In this document: piece by piece, positions 18,449 to 23,529 of the stretch
Position numbering within the stretch: position 1 is the first letter of the stretch
How the letters are laid out: every line of letters starts with the position of its first letter
Assembly (NCBI GenBank): GCA_963705505.1
Contig: CAVPJU010000006.1
Coordinates: forward strand, 384,001 to 448,000
DNA length: 64,000 bases
Reading direction: 5' to 3'
Source of the DNA: an uncultured bacterium
GTDB taxonomy: Bacteria > Desulfobacterota_D > UBA1144 > Nemesobacterales > UBA2774
The notes under the pieces: generated by a model
Told to the model about the DNA's origin: nothing
Database searches by the model: none
Seen by the model: the letters and a program-made list of their open reading frames with translations, nothing else
Translations under genes and position numbers: made by a program

Positions 18449-19330
18449 ATGATAAAAAAATCCCTGCTAACAATTATAATCCTCGCAATCGTAACGGCAT
18501 CGTGCCTGAAAGCCGTTGCGGCAGACACACCCAAGCGTATAGTCTCGCTCTCTCCGAACCTGACCGATATGATCTATGCGCTCGGGGAGCTCGATAAGGT
18601 AGTGGGCGTAACGATTTATTCGGATTTCCCGCCCAGTGCGAAGACTCTGCCGAAGGTGGGAGGCTGGATCAATCCCAACTACGAAGCCATACTCGCGCTC
18701 AGGCCCGATCTCGTCGTTCTTATGAAGGACCAGGACACGATATTCGGCGAGAAAATAAGGAAGCTCGGGCTCAAAACTCTCGTTACGAACAGCAACGATT
18801 CCATAAACGATATATTGAAGACGATAACCAACATGGGGGAGGTATTGGGCAGAGAGACCGAGGCGAAGAGAATGGTCTCCGATATGGAAAAGAGACTCGA
18901 AGCTATAAGGGAGAGAACGGAAGGAGTGCCGAAGAAGAAGGTCCTTCTTGTTGTCGGAAGGAACCCGGGAACCCTTGAGGACATCTACGTGATCGGGCGG
19001 AATAACTACATTAACGAGCTGATCGAATTATCCGGAGGGGTAAACGCGGTCGAAAATACGAGGCTCTCGATAAAGATCACGAAAGAGGCTATACTGACAC
19101 TCGACCCGGACGTAATAATCGAAATAAACCACGAAAAGCTGAACAAGGAAGCCGAAATCCTCGGCACATGGAGCATTCTCCACGAGTCGAGGGCCGTAAG
19201 CAGCGGTCAGGTCTATATACTGCCGAGCACCGTGCTCCTTCATCCGAGCCAGAGGATCGTTGAGGGCGCGGAGGTTTTGACAGAACTACTTCACCCCGAA
19301 TTGAAGGACAAATATGGAAACAATAATTGA
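18449..19330 (+). CDS. btuF: Periplasmic cobalamin/Fe-siderophore ABC substrate-binding protein (BtuF-like)
   Basis: Signal peptide, PKRIVSLSPNLTDMIYALG, PNYEAILALRPDLV. Confidence 0.8.
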   Translation: MIKKSLLTIIILAIVTASCLKAVAADTPKRIVSLSPNLTDMIYALGELDKVVGVTIYSDFPPSAKTLPKVGGWINPNYEAILALRPDLVVLMKDQDTIFGEKIRKLGLKTLVTNSNDSINDILKTITNMGEVLGRETEAKRMVSDMEKRLEAIRERTEGVPKKKVLLVVGRNPGTLEDIYVIGRNNYINELIELSGGVNAVENTRLSIKITKEAILTLDPDVIIEINHEKLNKEAEILGTWSILHESRAVSSGQVYILPSTVLLHPSQRIVEGAEVLTELLHPELKDKYGNNN

Positions 19331-20087
19331 GTGCTCGGGAGTCTCTTTTTCTTACGGCGGCGGAGACATCATCAAGAACATCAACCTCTCGCTCCGCAAG
19401 GGTAATATGCTCGGGATACTGGGGGCGAACGGAGCCGGTAAATCGACCCTCCTTAAAGTACTCATGGGAATATTGAAAGCGCAGAAGGGAAATGTGTTTT
19501 TTAAGGACAAGCCCCTTTTGAGCCTCGACAGAAGGGAGATCGCAAAGAAGATCGCATACATTCCGCAGGACCCTGTCTTCGCATTCCCCTTCACCGTATC
19601 CGAAGTCATACTCATGGGCAGGGCTCCATATATAGGCAGGTTCGAATTCGAGAGGGAGATGGACAGGGAAGCCGCAGAGAGGGCCATGGACACCGTCGGA
19701 ATCTCTCACCTGAAAGACAGATTGATTACCGAAACCTCTTCGGGGGAAAGACAGCTCGCGTCGATCGCGAGGGCGCTCGTGCAGGAGCCCGAGGTCATGA
19801 TACTCGATGAGCCCGCCACTTTTCTCGACATCAGACACAGGAACGAAATCATGAAGCTGCTCCGAAAGCTCCGGGAGGAGCGCGGGATACTGATCATCGC
19901 AGCCACACACGATATATTCACGGCCCTCTATTATTTCGATGAAATAGTAATGATAAAAGACGGGAGCGTGTTCGCGGACGGAAAAACGGACGAGGTCATC
20001 AACCGGGAAAACCTGAGCTCGCTTTACGGAATGGAGGTCCTGGTCAAAAGGGAGGGCGGAAAAGTTTTCATCTACCCCGGCGATTGA
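19314..20087 (+). CDS. Cobalamin/iron-chelate ABC transporter ATP-binding protein (BtuD/FecE-like)
   Basis: GANGAGKST Walker A, SSGERQ signature, LDEP Walker B. Confidence 0.9.
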   Translation: METIIECSGVSFSYGGGDIIKNINLSLRKGNMLGILGANGAGKSTLLKVLMGILKAQKGNVFFKDKPLLSLDRREIAKKIAYIPQDPVFAFPFTVSEVILMGRAPYIGRFEFEREMDREAAERAMDTVGISHLKDRLITETSSGERQLASIARALVQEPEVMILDEPATFLDIRHRNEIMKLLRKLREERGILIIAATHDIFTALYYFDEIVMIKDGSVFADGKTDEVINRENLSSLYGMEVLVKREGGKVFIYPGD

Positions 20088-20128
20088 TTAATGCCGGGAA
20101 CCGAAATTAAATCTCACCCATAATACCG

Positions 20129-21130
20129 ATGATTGCCAAAAAGAAATTTTTACTCGCGATAAGCCTCTTATTTTTGCTCTGGGTCTTTATAGCCTCGATA
20201 AGCGTGCTTTCGGGCACGTATGACGCGAACCCTTTTGAAGCCCTCTTTAAAGGGGATGAGCTCGCAAATACTATTTTTTATAAAATCAGGATACCGAGGG
20301 TGCTCATGGCGACGGTTGCGGGAGGGACGCTCGGCATGTGCGGCGCCGCGCTCCAGGCGCTCTTCAGGAACCCTCTGGCGTCTCCGTTCACGCTGGGCAT
20401 TTCGGGAGGCGCGTCTCTGGGGGCTCTCATAGGGATAAGGCTCGGCCTGGCAGCCGGTCTGCTGGGTTTTTCGATGGTCTCTATTCTGGCGTTTCTCTTT
20501 TCTCTCTTTACCATGATCTTCGTTTACAAGGTTTCGAAGGTGGGAGGGGTAGTGGCCACCGGACGTCTGCTCCTGGCGGGCGTGGTAATGAACTTCCTCT
20601 ATTCCGCCTTCGTGCTTTTTATCCAGTTCTTTTCCAACTTCACCGAGTCGCTTCAGACCATGCGCTGGATCATGGGGAGCCTCGATATCGTGGGCTTCGA
20701 TGAGGTCTGGAAAACACTCATATTCGTAGTACCGGGGTGCCTGATACTTCTCTCGTTAACTAAGGACATGAATTTATTCGGTCTGGGAGACGACGTCGCA
20801 TCGTCACTGGGAGTTAACGTAAAGAAAATGCAAAACCAGATCTACTTCGCAACGTCTCTATCGGCGGGAGCGGTAATATCGGTAACGGGGCCTATAGGAT
20901 TCGTCGGACTGATAATTCCGCATATCCTGAGAATGCTGCTCGGGGTCGATAACAGAATCATCCTCCCCTGTTCGTTCCTGCTGGGCGCTTCGTTCCTCAC
21001 GGCCGCCGATACGGTCTCGAGGACCCTCATATCGCCCGTCGAGATACCCGTGGGGATAATAACAGCTTCCGTGGGCGGACTATTCTTTCTCTGGCTGCTT
21101 ATGAAGACAAAGAAAGAAGTTATTGTTTAG
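20129..21130 (+). CDS. Cobalamin/iron-chelate ABC transporter permease (BtuC/FecCD family)
   Basis: IRIPRV, QALFRNPLASP, GPIGFVGLIIPH, EIPVGIITA. Confidence 0.93.
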   Translation: MIAKKKFLLAISLLFLLWVFIASISVLSGTYDANPFEALFKGDELANTIFYKIRIPRVLMATVAGGTLGMCGAALQALFRNPLASPFTLGISGGASLGALIGIRLGLAAGLLGFSMVSILAFLFSLFTMIFVYKVSKVGGVVATGRLLLAGVVMNFLYSAFVLFIQFFSNFTESLQTMRWIMGSLDIVGFDEVWKTLIFVVPGCLILLSLTKDMNLFGLGDDVASSLGVNVKKMQNQIYFATSLSAGAVISVTGPIGFVGLIIPHILRMLLGVDNRIILPCSFLLGASFLTAADTVSRTLISPVEIPVGIITASVGGLFFLWLLMKTKKEVIV

Positions 21131-21197
21131 CTGCCGGCCCGTCGCCGCAGAGCCGATCATCAAATTAAAACAGAGAAATAACCGTGCTCTTCTTAAA

Positions 21198-21428
21198 CTA
21201 CGTGCCGGGAGCCTTGAAAGGATCGACTTCCCCCGAGGGCCGAGAAGAAGACCCTCCCGCCTGGGACGCCGCGGCAGATTTAAAAGGATCGGCATCACCC
21301 GAAGGAGCGGGCGGCGGGGTCGGCGGTGGAGGAGGCGCTGCGCTTGCGGCTGCAGCTTGACTCCCCTGAGGCTGCATGAAACGCCATATAAAAAAGGCCA
21401 AACCTATAATAATCAATGTCCACATCAT
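21198..21428 (-). CDS. 76-aa single-pass membrane protein with Ala/Pro-rich tail and two PSG(D/E)xDPFK motifs
   Basis: GGAGG RBS; N-terminal hydrophobic helix MMWTLIIIGLAFFIWRF; homologous to the two upstream 22-aa ORFs. Confidence 0.75.
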   Translation of the reverse strand: MMWTLIIIGLAFFIWRFMQPQGSQAAAASAAPPPPPTPPPAPSGDADPFKSAAASQAGGSSSRPSGEVDPFKAPGT

Positions 21429-21510
21429 TTCTAAATTTCCTCCGTAACGAAATATTCAGTATCAATAAGCGATCATAAAACAAGCCGCCTCAGATTAATA
21501 CCCCCCCGCT

Positions 21511-21579
21511 TTATGACTGGGGCTGGATAAAACGCCATATAAAAAAGGCCAAACCTATAATAATCAATGTCCACATCAT
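21511..21579 (-). CDS. 22-aa hydrophobic peptide MMWTLIIIGLAFFIWRFIQPQS
   Basis: Translated by hand; AGAGG RBS; frame conserved across repeat copies. Confidence 0.65.
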   Translation of the reverse strand: MMWTLIIIGLAFFIWRFIQPQS

Positions 21580-21659
21580 TTCTAAATTTCCTCTGTAACG
21601 AAATATTCAGTATCAAAAGCGATCATAAAACAAGCCGCCTCAGTTTAATCCCCCCCGCT

Positions 21660-21728
21660 TTATGACTGGGGCTGCATAAAACGCCACATAAAGAATGCCA
21701 AACCTATAATAATCAGTGTCCACATCAT
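21660..21728 (-). CDS. 22-aa hydrophobic peptide MMWTLIIIGLAFFMWRFMQPQS
   Basis: Translated by hand; GGAGG RBS; differs from the other copies mostly by synonymous changes. Confidence 0.68.
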   Translation of the reverse strand: MMWTLIIIGLAFFMWRFMQPQS

Positions 21729-21860
21729 CTCTAAATTTCCTCCGTAGTAAAATATTCAGTATCAAAAGCGATCATAAAACAAGCCACCTTAGACGAATCC
21801 CCCCTTCTTTATGAATATTGTTTGAAATTCACCCCTAAATAATCAGCACCTACTACCTTG

Positions 21861-21890
21861 ATACTAATAAATTTCATATGCCCGTGTCAA
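21861..21890 (-). promoter_or_regulatory. Sigma70-type promoter reading into the small-peptide array
   Basis: TTGACA-N18-TAGTAT on minus strand. Confidence 0.55.
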
Positions 21891-22019
21891 GATAAAAATT
21901 CGAAGACGCCGGATAAATGCCTCGTTTCCGGGAATTATAAGGATTTCTCACCCCGGCAGGGTCAGGTTTTGCTAAAAATCGCGCTTGTAATAGACTTAAC
22001 ATGCAAGACGGAGGGTATT

Positions 22020-22487
22020 TTGTTATCGATTCTTCTGAAACCTTTCCTGAATAAAAGGAAAAGGATTAACGATAACCCGGAACTGCATCCCGATACCGAG
22101 TTCTCACTATCGTTGATCGAATCGGGGTGCCTGTTTGCGCGTATGAACGATAAAACGGCCCTGATTATAAAAAGTACGGGCCAGGAAATCGATATAATGA
22201 AGGAATTTCAGGCGATTACCGTCGGTTTCGAGCTCATCGAAAGACCCGAGTTCCCTTCACTCTCATTCTCCCTGAATATAGATACAAAGAGAAAGCAAAC
22301 GTTCCGTTTCGAATATTTTTTCAATACAGAGTCCGAGGAAGAGATGAGCATCCTCGGGAAAATGTGCGGGGAAAAGCGATTCGACATACTTTTTTATAAC
22401 TCCTCCGTGGAGTTCATTATACGGACGGAGATTTCGGATGAACAAGCCTCCGAACTCGGATCGTTATTAAACCGGGCGGGAGTGTAG
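22020..22487 (+). CDS. Hypothetical protein
   Basis: Part of ORF 21858..22487; likely TTG start at 22020 after GGAGG; no family recognised. Confidence 0.6.
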   Translation: MLSILLKPFLNKRKRINDNPELHPDTEFSLSLIESGCLFARMNDKTALIIKSTGQEIDIMKEFQAITVGFELIERPEFPSLSFSLNIDTKRKQTFRFEYFFNTESEEEMSILGKMCGEKRFDILFYNSSVEFIIRTEISDEQASELGSLLNRAGV

Positions 22488-22488
22488 T

Positions 22489-22518
22489 TTGACAAACATA
22501 CCTCTTCCCTGATACTAT
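22489..22518 (+). promoter_or_regulatory. Sigma70-type promoter of fabH
   Basis: TTGACA-N18-TACTAT with extended TG. Confidence 0.55.
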
Positions 22519-22551
22519 TCCCGTCGAGTAACTTGAGGAGAAACCATAAAT

Positions 22552-23529
22552 TTGAGTTTTGTTAGGTTCTTAGGCACCGGTTCATCGGCTCCGCCGAAAA
22601 TAATGACCAACCTCGACCTCGAAAAACTGGTCGATACCTCGGACGAATGGATTCAAACCAGGACCGGGATACGGGAACGGAGAATAGCCGAGCCCGACGT
22701 CGCTACGTCCGATATCGCTTATGAAGCTTCGCTCAAAGCGCTGGAAAGCTCGGGAGTGGACGCCCGCGACCTCGACGGGATAATCGTCGGCACTGTAACC
22801 CCCGATTATATATTCCCATCGACCGCCTGTATCCTCCAAAGCCGCCTCGGCGCCAAAAAAGCATTCGCATTCGATGTCCTCGCAGGCTGTTCGGGATTTT
22901 TATATGCCCTACAGGCAGGAAAGGGAATAATAAGCGCAGGGGACGCAAAAAAACTTCTTATTATCGGGGCGGAGACCCTCTCTAAAATCACCGATTTCGA
23001 GGACAGGTCAACGTGTATCCTCTTCGGGGACGGGGCGGGCGCCGCCGTTTTGTCGGAATCGGAATCACCGGGGATACTCTCGACGTGCCTCGGGGCGAAC
23101 GGGGACGAATGGCAGCTTTTGTACATGCCCGGAGGAGGCTCGCGCATGCCGGCCAGCGAAGAGAGTATTAAGAACAAATGCCATTACCTGAAAATGGCGG
23201 GAAAGGAAGTTTTTAAAGAGGCGGTAAAAGCGCTCGAATCTTCTTCGCTGGAAGCAATAAGAAAGGCGGATATCACGCCCGAGGAAATAGACCTGTTCAT
23301 ACCCCATCAGGCGAACATCAGGATACTGGAAGCCGTGAGGAAGCGCATAGGGCTTCCGGAAGAGAAGGTATTCAGCAACCTCGACAGGTACGGTAACACT
23401 TCATCCGCATCGGTCCCTCTGGCTCTCGACGAAGCAGTCAGAAGCGGAAGGGTCAAGGAAGGGGATACGATACTCATTTCGGTGTTCGGAGCGGGGTTTA
23501 CATGGGGCGCCGCGGTCGTCAGGTGGTAA
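22552..23529 (+). CDS. fabH: Beta-ketoacyl-ACP synthase III
   Basis: DTSDEWIQTRTGIRERR, AGCSGF, LFGDGAGA, PHQANIRI, YGNTSSAS, FGAGFTWG. Confidence 0.97.
   Translation: MSFVRFLGTGSSAPPKIMTNLDLEKLVDTSDEWIQTRTGIRERRIAEPDVATSDIAYEASLKALESSGVDARDLDGIIVGTVTPDYIFPSTACILQSRLGAKKAFAFDVLAGCSGFLYALQAGKGIISAGDAKKLLIIGAETLSKITDFEDRSTCILFGDGAGAAVLSESESPGILSTCLGANGDEWQLLYMPGGGSRMPASEESIKNKCHYLKMAGKEVFKEAVKALESSSLEAIRKADITPEEIDLFIPHQANIRILEAVRKRIGLPEEKVFSNLDRYGNTSSASVPLALDEAVRSGRVKEGDTILISVFGAGFTWGAAVVRW

What the first reader, a model, noticed from the sequence alone, without database searches (positions are those of the whole stretch)
21198..21814. Tandem array of three small membrane-peptide genes with signs of purifying selection (candidate undescribed system)
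Seen: three ~150-bp direct repeats. On the minus strand each has an RBS and ATG-ATG opening the same hydrophobic helix: MMWTLIIIGLAFFMWRFMQPQS* (21660-21728), MMWTLIIIGLAFFIWRFIQPQS* (21511-21579) and a 76-aa extended form (21198-21428). Of 7 variable sites in the 21 shared codons, 5 are synonymous and 2 are Ile/Met swaps. There are no indels in the coding parts, but there are indels in the spacers. Both short ORFs fall below the ORF-track cutoff. Known: ~150-bp repeats each encoding a ~20-aa hydrophobic peptide is the architecture of E. coli SIB/Ibs type I toxin-antitoxin loci (analogy only, no homology claimed). Inference: either a new type I TA-like peptide array, or anchor-only subunits that co-assemble with or titrate the tailed protein.
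Basis: partly seen in the sequence, partly recalled or inferred. Interest (0 to 1): 0.85.

Follow-up and report, generated by a model that had tools for sequence, protein, structure and literature searches.

The report
Anchor-only mini-copies of a membrane protein
Two 22-codon genes in front of a small membrane-protein gene are partial copies that keep only its membrane helix, and relatives show that such tail-less copies have been preserved by selection, so they are probably working micro-proteins rather than debris.

Summary
Three ~150-nt direct repeats on the minus strand carry two 22-aa ORFs (21660-21728, 21511-21579) and a 76-aa gene (21198-21428).

The array is a partial tandem duplication: the proximal ~85 nt of the 5'UTR plus the first 21 codons of an orphan gene. 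That gene ("F") has one TM helix, a disordered Pro/Ala tail and DPFK motifs. It is present in 32 of 33 genomes of the family.

One promoter (TTGACA-N18-TAGTAT), conserved in 20 of 20 loci, lies upstream of the whole array, so the short ORFs ("S") are probably co-transcribed.

S copies with the same junction occur in two other species and one metagenome contig. A separately derived, stand-alone 23-aa copy with its own promoter sits at a conserved locus in another genus.

All 9 S copies are intact. Their substitutions are almost all synonymous: at least 10 synonymous against 1 non-synonymous in the stand-alone type, and 5 against 0 between orthologous tandem copies. Flanking UTRs are far more diverged.

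No antisense promoter, RNA structure or known family was found, so a type I toxin-antitoxin reading is unsupported.

The best reading is selected anchor-only paralogues acting through the shared helix. The mechanism is inferred, not shown.

The parts
21861..21890 (-). Sigma-70-type promoter TTGACA-N18-TAGTAT upstream of the whole array
   Evidence: scores it 10 of 12 consensus positions. The same promoter, with a nearly invariant AAATTTATTAGTAT, is present in 20 of 20 oriented relatives' loci. It is unique in the own genome.
21729..21853 (-). 5' leader of the first unit, with its RBS near 21740
   Evidence: Single-copy relatives have a leader of 129-135 nt. No conserved RNA structure was found. 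There is no Rfam match at the gathering score.
21660..21728 (-). Short ORF S-A (22 aa, anchor-only): MMWTLIIIGLAFFMWRFMQPQS*
   Evidence: It has the same amino-acid sequence as the short copy of G006, with 5 synonymous and 0 non-synonymous differences. It shares the synonymous marker ACACTG with the short copies of G006 and L094.
21580..21659 (-). Spacer: a duplicated proximal 5'UTR with the RBS (AGAGG) for S-B
21511..21579 (-). Short ORF S-B (22 aa, anchor-only): MMWTLIIIGLAFFIWRFIQPQS*
   Evidence: Its UTR is 93% and its CDS 95% identical to the unit of the full gene. This points to a recent extra duplication or to gene conversion.
21429..21510 (-). Spacer: proximal 5'UTR with the RBS (GGAGG) of the full-length gene
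   Evidence: A contig from an RNA library, X19, spans 21321-21525. This is weak evidence, because DNA carry-over is not excluded.
21198..21428 (-). Full-length gene F (76 aa): TM helix, Pro/Ala-rich disordered tail, DPFKSA motif and C-terminal GEVDPFKAPGT
   Evidence: It is present in 32 of 33 genomes of the family. The AF2 model has a helix at residues 2-18 (block pLDDT 91 and 82) and low confidence elsewhere. No Pfam, NCBIfam or PADLOC family matched.
21350..21798 (.). Three tandem direct-repeat units of 149-151 nt
21206..21305 (-). Internal 34-nt repeat, two copies 66 nt apart, encoding the two DPFK motifs of the tail
   Evidence: family D2. The two motifs are aligned across the family.
22020..22487 (+). 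Divergently transcribed conserved neighbour (155 aa, TTG start, no known family). Context, not part of the array
   Evidence: the gene was extracted from 15 of 20 loci by pattern, and its conserved SGC-motif coding sequence is visible by eye in the other 5 upstream regions. The AF2 model has pLDDT 83. Only weak fold matches were found, Z 5-6, to Whirly, PUR and SsgA-like chains.

Best explanation
SHOWN. The array is a partial tandem duplication of the 5' end of a family-conserved orphan gene, F. F is a TM helix followed by a disordered tail with DPFK motifs. Each duplicated unit carries the proximal ~85 nt of the leader (RBS included) and the first 21 codons, and runs straight into a stop. This yields 22-aa 'anchor-only' ORFs, S. 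The junction is old. It is shared by the window genome, two other species of the genus and one metagenome lineage. Three S lineages share a synonymous marker that no F copy has. A different, dispersed partial duplication in another genus produced a stand-alone 23-aa S gene with its own promoter and RBS at a conserved locus. S ORFs evolve under strong purifying selection at the amino-acid level, while the DNA around them diverges.

INFERRED. S-A, S-B and F are transcribed together from the single conserved promoter, and each is translated from its own RBS. The S peptides insert into the membrane. Through the unusually conserved helix (M-W-T-L-I..G.....W) they occupy the same helix-binding site as F. 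That site is either F itself (mixed oligomers) or a shared membrane partner. The S peptides would thus set how many tail-bearing, DPFK-displaying tethers are engaged. This is microProtein-like titration, with dosage set by copy number.
For: Anatomy and junction.

F is conserved in 32 of 33 family genomes. The promoter is present in 20 of 20 loci and is unique in the genome.

Extra short copies were found only in G000 (2), G003, G006, G014 and G021. The search was a pattern scan of 101 genomes with 0 control hits. Metagenome loci L094, L079 and L085 add three more.

All 9 of 9 S copies have an ATG, an SD-like motif, no frameshift and no internal stop.

Selection:
- G000_S1 against G006_S: 5 synonymous, 0 non-synonymous differences.
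- G006 S against F: 4 synonymous, 0 non-synonymous.
- G014 S against G014 F: 7 synonymous, 0 non-synonymous over 16 codons (pS 0.70).
- Four stand-alone S genes: at least 10 synonymous events against 1 non-synonymous. P = 1.3e-6 under site proportions, and 7e-4 with a conservative p = 0.6.

UTR identity against CDS identity is 70% vs 92%, 70% vs 94% and 54% vs 94%.

The marker ACACTG occurs in G000_S1, G006_S and L094_S, against ACATTG in all 11 g1-type F copies.

The stand-alone S sits between the same two genes in the loci that reach that far. The downstream gene is a class I aminoacyl-tRNA synthetase.

Two independent origins, with different junction, locus and promoter content, argue for an adaptive value of tail-less copies.

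In another family of the order, the homologous gene has shed the opposite module. Tail-only tandem paralogues occur in 6 of 36 genomes, so the two modules can stand alone.
Against: S is absent from most lineages. 7 of 10 species of the genus and 41 of 42 F-bearing metagenome loci have no tandem S, so it is dispensable.

Gene conversion with F does occur. In G003, S and F are identical over the first 45 nt, and G000 S-B is nearly identical to the F unit. This inflates the apparent conservation in some comparisons.

On a 2676-column tree of flanking DNA, the three S-bearing species are not one clade (AU p = 0.0005). The history therefore needs at least 2 losses, or recombination.

The function of F itself is unknown: no family, no fold and no motif partner were found.

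Co-transcription rests on promoter scans and on one low-depth contig from an RNA library that may be DNA.
Confidence: 0.55

Rival explanations
1. Neutral by-product. The short ORFs are inert stubs of a tandem duplication. They look conserved only because gene conversion from the selected full-length copy keeps overwriting them.
For: Conversion tracts are visible. In G003, S and F are identical over about 45 nt, and G000 S-B is 95% (CDS) and 93% (UTR) identical to the F unit. S has been lost or is absent in most lineages.
Against: Orthologous S-to-S comparisons do not involve F. They still show 5 synonymous and 0 non-synonymous differences (G000 against G006) and at least 10 against 1 (stand-alone genes). 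The stand-alone S lies at another locus and has pS 0.70-0.92 to its own F, so it has not been recently converted, yet 16 of 16 and 14 of 16 residues are identical. The S-specific synonymous marker has survived. The start codon, the RBS and the stop position are kept in 9 of 9 copies, while the UTRs fall to 51-70% identity with indels.
Confidence: 0.12
2. Type I toxin-antitoxin-like array. Each repeat encodes a membrane-damaging peptide held in check by an antisense or nearby small RNA, as in ibs-sib.
For: The peptides are under 70 aa, have a TM helix and a short polar C-terminus, and are tandemly repeated in an intergenic region. These are search criteria of Fozo et al. 2010 (PMC2887945; passages read).
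Against: No antisense-strand promoter-like site overlaps or adjoins a short ORF in the window or in L011, L015, L034 and L035. The three antisense-strand matches in those scans lie well away from the short ORFs. The flanks, where an sRNA and its promoter would lie, are poorly conserved. The transcript is unstructured (z +1.95). The peptides sit behind a consensus-like conserved promoter and good RBSs. They are homologous to the anchor of a protein present in 32 of 33 family genomes. No toxin family matched in Pfam or PADLOC.
Confidence: 0.05
3. Cis-acting upstream ORFs. Translation of S-A and S-B regulates translation, or membrane targeting, of the downstream F message. The peptides themselves have no role.
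For: In the genus of the window, S always lies directly upstream of F on what is probably the same transcript.
Against: The other genus keeps S as a separate transcription unit at a distant locus, where it cannot act in cis on F. At 22 codons the peptide ends before a nascent TM segment could leave the ribosome tunnel (established knowledge of tunnel length; recalled). Sensing of the MifM or SecM type is therefore implausible. No hairpin sequesters the next RBS. Selection is on the amino-acid sequence along the whole helix.
Confidence: 0.1
4. Independent new function. S peptides are selected small membrane proteins that now serve an unrelated complex or process, and they no longer interact with F or with F's partner.
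For: Small single-helix proteins commonly act as accessory subunits or regulators of diverse membrane complexes (review PMC12648545; passages read). Selection on S is shown, but its target is not.
Against: S tracks the lineage-specific helix residues of its own F: G003 IIVGLAFVIW, L094 IVIGLV(V/I)L, G000 IIIGLAFF. The stand-alone S has kept the F helix identical despite saturated synonymous divergence. This fits a shared binding site better than a new one. No membrane-complex operon is adjacent.
Confidence: 0.15

Closest known systems
microProteins (miPs) of plants and animals, e.g. LITTLE ZIPPER and Id-type proteins (review PMC9638782, abstract seen in the listing; the examples are recalled)
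   Same: A small protein that keeps only the interaction module of an evolutionarily related larger protein and lacks its effector part. It arises by truncating duplication and is thought to act by engaging the same interaction surface.
   Different: Here the retained module is a single transmembrane helix and the 'large' relative is itself only 59-92 aa. The organism is a bacterium. The copies are tandem upstream ORFs on the parent's transcript, or in another genus a dispersed mini-gene. No interaction has been shown.
E. coli ibs-sib and ldr-rdl type I toxin-antitoxin repeats (Fozo et al. 2010, PMC2887945; passages read)
   Same: Tandem intergenic repeats, each encoding a hydrophobic peptide of about 20 aa with a polar C-terminus, missed by gene callers.
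   Different: No antisense RNA promoter or conserved flank was found. The repeats are co-oriented behind one strong promoter. The peptides are truncated paralogues of a conserved, non-toxin-like gene. There is no sequence homology to known toxins.
Bacterial small membrane proteins that bind larger membrane proteins, e.g. CydX, AcrZ, MgrB, KdpF (review PMC12648545, passages read; the examples are partly recalled)
   Same: Single-helix peptides of 20-60 aa under selection, acting through helix-helix contacts.
   Different: Those are not truncated copies of their partner, and they are usually encoded with or regulated alongside the complex they bind. Here the origin by partial duplication of the partner candidate is explicit and recurrent.
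Cyanobacterial one-helix Hlip/Scp proteins and the homologous C-terminal helix of ferrochelatase
   Same: Free-standing one-helix proteins homologous to a membrane helix that is also found attached to a larger protein.
   Different: That is a pigment-binding family of ancient origin, and there is no tandem-array or uORF arrangement.

Membership tests
Type I toxin-antitoxin (ibs-sib-like) | Small hydrophobic peptide (<70 aa, TM region, polar or aromatic C-terminus) | tested here: met
   22 aa, with a helix at residues 2-18 in the F model and a C-terminus RFMQPQS. The criteria are from PMC2887945.
Type I toxin-antitoxin (ibs-sib-like) | Antitoxin sRNA, antisense or adjacent, with its own promoter | tested here: inconclusive
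   No promoter-like site on the opposite strand overlaps or adjoins a short ORF in 5 loci. The flanks are poorly conserved. There was no Rfam hit. Consensus scans cannot exclude an sRNA, and no stranded RNA data were available.
Type I toxin-antitoxin (ibs-sib-like) | Toxicity on overproduction, relieved by the sRNA | not testable with these tools
   This needs expression experiments.
Type I toxin-antitoxin (ibs-sib-like) | Sequence homology to a known toxin family | tested here: not met
   Pfam scan at E<=10 for the S peptides: 0 families for the two window peptides, and one chance-level DUF975 hit (E 0.083) for the stand-alone peptide. PADLOC gave none.
microProtein-like truncated paralogue | Homologous to one module of a larger related protein | tested here: met
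   S is 19-21 of 21 residues identical to the N-terminus of F in the same genome. The duplication junction is visible in the DNA.
microProtein-like truncated paralogue | Lacks the effector or output part of the relative | tested here: met
   S ends one codon after the junction. The linker and both DPFK motifs are absent.
microProtein-like truncated paralogue | Maintained by selection as a coding gene | tested here: met
   Synonymous against non-synonymous counts and the contrast between UTR and CDS identity. All 9 of 9 copies are intact.
microProtein-like truncated paralogue | Physically engages the larger relative or its partner | not testable with these tools
Regulatory leader or arrest peptide (MifM/SecM-like uORF) | uORF on the same transcript, directly upstream of the regulated gene | tested here: inconclusive
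   This is met by position in the genus of the window. It is not met for the stand-alone copy in genus g6.
Regulatory leader or arrest peptide (MifM/SecM-like uORF) | mRNA structure masking the downstream RBS that the stalled ribosome opens | tested here: not met
   The array transcript folds no better than shuffles (z +1.95). No conserved leader structure was found.

The most novel reading that the evidence does not exclude
A bacterial lineage uses microProtein logic on a membrane tether. The conserved protein F displays short DPFK docking motifs on a flexible tail. Its two modules have repeatedly been released as free genes: anchor-only peptides arose twice independently, and tail-only proteins arose in a sister family. 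These free modules compete with F for its membrane site or for its soluble partner. Tandem copy number acts as a heritable dosage dial.
Probability: 0.3. Interest if true: 0.75.

Novelty: new variant of a known kind. Interest (0 to 1): 0.6.

Why it matters
This is a clean natural example of how new small-protein genes are born in bacteria. They arise not de novo but by partial duplication that carries an RBS and a start and then runs into a stop.

It shows that such 22-23-codon genes, which are invisible to gene callers, can be kept by selection across species.

If the titration reading is right, it extends the microProtein principle from eukaryotic transcription factors to bacterial membrane proteins. 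It also gives a handle on an orphan protein family that is conserved across two families of an uncultured lineage: F, its DPFK motifs and its conserved divergent neighbour.

Tried and rejected
Rfam at E<=10 over 20000-23000 gave 5 matches. All were far below their gathering scores and to eukaryotic or irrelevant families.

RNAalifold on 15 leaders gave no conserved structure (-0.89 kcal/mol).

I tested whether the 130-nt leader is itself an older decayed copy of the CDS. Local alignment against 300 shuffles in 20 loci gave a best z of 2.2, so the idea is rejected.

Pfam, NCBIfam and PADLOC scans of F, of S and of the neighbour gave only sub-threshold hits.

The ESM Atlas gave a best score of 0.81 to a nameless cluster.

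The search for homologous proteins returned 14 hits, all hypothetical.

For the neighbour protein, Foldseek against the PDB found nothing at E<=0.001. VIA-wide gave only Z 5-6, which is in the range of chance arrangements.

Complex prediction (neighbour plus the F tail) was unavailable.

A search of the own genome for other DPF[KR] carriers found no convincing second carrier.

The search of earlier findings near the site and by sequence returned nothing.

A literature search for the peptide strings returned 0 papers. Searches for truncated small-protein paralogues in bacteria turned up no described equivalent in the listings and passages I read. This is not proof that none is in print.

In the laid runs, parts of the stretch have no cover in some runs. 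Nothing is concluded from those gaps.

Full report
**Observation.** The minus strand of 21198-21814 holds three direct-repeat units of 149-151 nt (89% mean column identity in a gapped alignment).
- The 21 shared codons have 7 variable sites, 5 synonymous and 2 Ile/Met. There are no indels in coding parts and two 1-nt indels in the spacers.
- The own genome (2.88 Mb, 10 contigs) has no other copy.

**Anatomy.** Alignment of the units, and comparison with 19 relatives' loci, shows what was duplicated. It is the proximal ~85 nt of the 5' leader, Shine-Dalgarno motif included, plus codons 1-21 of F.
- The right-hand breakpoint falls after ...CAG CCN CAG (QPQ). It is joined to leader sequence TCATAA, which gives Ser-stop at once.
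- The promoter is not part of the unit. A single sigma-70-type promoter, TTGACA-N18-TAGTAT (window 21890-21861), lies upstream of the whole array.
- The same promoter, with an almost invariant AAATTTATTAGTAT, is found in 20 of 20 oriented loci across the family. It occurs once in the own genome.
- The distance from the -10 element to the F start codon is 129-135 nt in the seven single-copy species of the genus. It is 283-286 nt in the two species with one short copy and 432 nt in the window.
- The simplest reading is one transcript carrying S-A, S-B and F, each with its own RBS.
- That RNA is not unusually structured (z +1.95 against shuffles). The leaders have no conserved fold and no Rfam family matches.

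**What F is.** F has no Pfam, NCBIfam or PADLOC family, no Atlas neighbour and only 'hypothetical' homologues.
- It is nevertheless present in 32 of 33 genomes of the family. The one miss is 59% complete.
- Synteny is conserved. On one side are FabH and a divergent 155-aa gene. On the other are a convergent FecCD permease and an ABC ATPase.
- The alignment of 30 distinct F proteins shows four elements: an unusually conserved N-terminal helix (M2 W3 T4 L5 I6 W15 P20 invariant, G9 and L10 nearly so); a Pro/Ala-rich linker of variable length; an internal (D/S)(P/E)F-x-S-A motif; and a C-terminal (E/D)-x-DPFKAPG motif.
- AlphaFold2 gives a confident helix at residues 2-18 and low confidence elsewhere.
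- F therefore looks like a membrane tether that displays short linear motifs. What the motifs bind is unknown.
- Earlier notes of this scan call the genome Dadabacteria-like. I did not test that.

**Short copies elsewhere.** A degenerate pattern for the first eight codons hit only this gene family in 101 genomes of the order, with 0 hits for the reversed control.
- Extra copies exist in 5 genomes: the window (2 extra), G003 and G006 in the same genus, and G014 and G021 in another genus.
- In G003 and G006 the extra copy is a 22-aa ORF directly upstream of F, with the same QPQ|TCATA(A/G) junction.
- A scan of metagenome contigs gave 59 loci, of which 15 are unrelated proteins and 44 belong to the family.
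- That scan added one tandem S+F locus, L094. Its junction is the same but TCA has mutated to TAA, giving 21 aa. It also added two further stand-alone copies, L079 and L085.

**The stand-alone copy.** In G014, G021, L079 and L085 the short gene is not next to F.
- It is a 23-aa ORF (MWTLIVIGLAFLGWYIIKPQEAE) with its own copy of the TTGACA-N18-TAGTAT promoter and its own RBS.
- It lies between the same 124-129-aa gene and a class I aminoacyl-tRNA synthetase gene. That gene is probably ileS, which I recall from its N-terminus. The L079 contig ends before it.
- Its end point differs from the tandem type. It runs about two codons further into F's sequence and has a one-codon indel. Together with the different locus and the promoter content, this makes it a second, independent partial duplication.

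**Selection.** All 9 of 9 short copies have an ATG, an SD-like motif, no frameshift and no internal stop. Nei-Gojobori counts are:

| Comparison | Synonymous | Non-synonymous |
|---|---|---|
| G000 S-A vs G006 S (orthologous short copies) | 5 | 0 |
| G006 S vs G006 F | 4 | 0 |
| G003 S vs G003 F | 2.5 | 1.5 (Arg to Lys) |
| L094 S vs L094 F | 6.5 | 3.5 (conservative changes) |
| G014 S vs G014 F, 16 alignable codons (pS 0.70) | 7 | 0 |
| Four stand-alone S genes (minimum events) | 10 | 1 |

- For the four stand-alone genes, the binomial P is 1.3e-6 with site proportions and 7e-4 with a deliberately conservative neutral share of 0.6.
- For G000 S-A against G006 S, P is 1.4e-4 or 0.010 on the same two assumptions.
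- The adjoining UTRs are much more diverged than the ORFs: 70% against 92% (G000/G006), 70% against 94% (G014/G021) and 54% against 94% (G003 S/F), with indels only outside the ORFs.
- Three short-copy lineages (G000 S-A, G006 S, L094 S) share the synonymous state ACA-CTG. All 11 g1-type F copies have ACA-TTG. These short copies therefore descend from one old short copy and are not repeatedly remade from F.

**Complications.**
- Gene conversion is real. In G003, S and F are identical over the first 45 nt. In the window, S-B is nearly identical to the F unit in both UTR and CDS. S-B is thus a recent addition or a converted copy.
- On a tree of 2676 flanking columns, G000 and G006 are sisters (100/99). 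G003 groups with six single-copy species (88/99). The AU test rejects a clade of the three S-bearing species (p = 0.0005).
- Given the shared junction, the short copy is most simply ancestral to the genus and lost at least twice. Recombination between 150-nt direct repeats would do that easily. Alternatively the locus has recombined between lineages.
- Either way S is dispensable. 7 of 10 species of the genus and 41 of 42 F-bearing metagenome loci lack a tandem S.

**Assembly check.** Only Logan contigs were available.
- X1 may be the source sample. It has a contig bridging 21379-21559.
- X2 is from another study. Its contigs cover 21454-21633 (B-like unit, 4 differences) and 21617-21982 (unit A plus the promoter, 5 differences).
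- A 210-nt contig from a metatranscriptomic library (X19; depth 2.1; 5 differences, 3 gaps) runs from the end of a short ORF through the spacer into F. This is compatible with co-transcription, but DNA carry-over cannot be excluded.
- No record spans the whole array.

**Type I toxin-antitoxin reading.** The peptide-side criteria of Fozo et al. 2010 are met: short length, a TM helix, a polar C-terminus and tandem repeats (PMC2887945, passages read). The rest does not fit.
- No opposite-strand promoter-like site overlaps or adjoins a short ORF in any of 5 loci.
- The flanks are not conserved and the mRNA is unstructured.
- The promoter is strong, conserved and shared with a near-universal gene.
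- There is no homology to toxin families.
- Toxicity was not testable. I give this reading 5%.

**Cis-acting uORF reading.** This fails on the stand-alone copy, and on length. A 22-residue chain ends while still inside the ribosome tunnel (recalled knowledge), so it cannot report on membrane insertion as MifM or SecM do.

**Most likely mechanism.**
- Shown: S peptides are selected coding genes that retain exactly the conserved helix of F and nothing else. This state has arisen twice.
- Inferred: they are made from F's transcript, or from a copy of its promoter. They insert into the membrane and use the shared helix to occupy the site that F's helix occupies, either F itself or a common partner. 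This changes how many motif-bearing tails are engaged there.
- Two observations fit a shared site. The helix is far more conserved than a passive anchor needs to be. S also follows the lineage-specific helix residues of its own F, although conversion could explain the latter.

**Noticed in passing: tail-only copies.** This observation supports modularity.
- In another family of the order (genus g14), F-like proteins with a different helix but the same DPF(Q/K) motifs occur in 36 of 36 genomes.
- Six of those genomes carry a tandem downstream paralogue that is tail-only. It is 67-71 aa, has its own RBS and has no helix.
- The family thus sheds either module as a free gene.

**Novelty.**
- I found no description of this protein family. 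A string search gave 0 papers.
- I found no bacterial case of selected anchor-only paralogues in the listings and passages read.
- The logic resembles eukaryotic microProteins (PMC9638782, abstract only).
- I rate it a new variant of a known kind. It is interesting chiefly as a documented route of small-gene birth, and as a testable lead on an orphan membrane tether in an uncultured lineage.

Noticed in passing
L127 (G037) minus strand start 1899; L128 plus 1889; L129 minus 1890; L136 minus 1884: In another family of the order (genus g14), F-like proteins with the same DPF(Q/K) motifs occur in 36 of 36 genomes. In 6 of those genomes they are followed by a tandem TAIL-ONLY paralogue of 67-71 aa that starts MSN..GDVNPFQSAV, has its own RBS and has no TM helix. 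This is the mirror image of the anchor-only copies.
   Followed up: partly
window 22020-22487 (+): The divergent 155-aa neighbour (TTG start, MLSILLKPFLN...) was extracted from 15 of 20 loci, and its SGC-motif coding sequence is visible by eye in the other 5 upstream regions. It has no known family. The AF2 model is confident (pLDDT 83). Only weak fold matches were found (Z 5-6), and the top rows are Whirly, PUR and SsgA-like chains.
   Followed up: partly
window 21861-21890 (-) and the same site in 19 relatives' loci: The promoter spacer and -10 region (AAATTTATTAGTATCAAGGTA) are conserved across genera far better than the rest of the intergenic region. This hints at an operator or a shared control of the divergent gene pair.
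   Followed up: partly
L034 1001-1072, L035 1055-1126, L079, L085: A stand-alone 23-aa gene sits between a conserved family-less ~124-aa gene and a class I aminoacyl-tRNA synthetase gene. In G014 it is followed by a strong hairpin with a U-run (-26.7 kcal/mol over 80 nt).
   Followed up: yes
L094, oriented strand, about 365-430 (leader upstream of its short ORF): The leader of this metagenome locus contains its own ~34-nt tandem duplication (GGGGGTGGCGTGTAA.CGGGG.GATAAAGC, twice). This region seems prone to small tandem duplications.
   Followed up: no
window 21206-21305 (-): The two DPFK motifs of F are encoded by a 34-nt internal repeat (76% identity, 66 nt apart). Some relatives lack one motif: G006, G020 and G013 lack the first, and G015 lacks the last.
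   Followed up: partly
window 18449-21130 (+): A three-gene ABC import operon (periplasmic binding protein, ATPase, FecCD permease) converges on the F gene. The permease and ATPase genes hold this position in the 15 loci of three genera that were examined.
   Followed up: no
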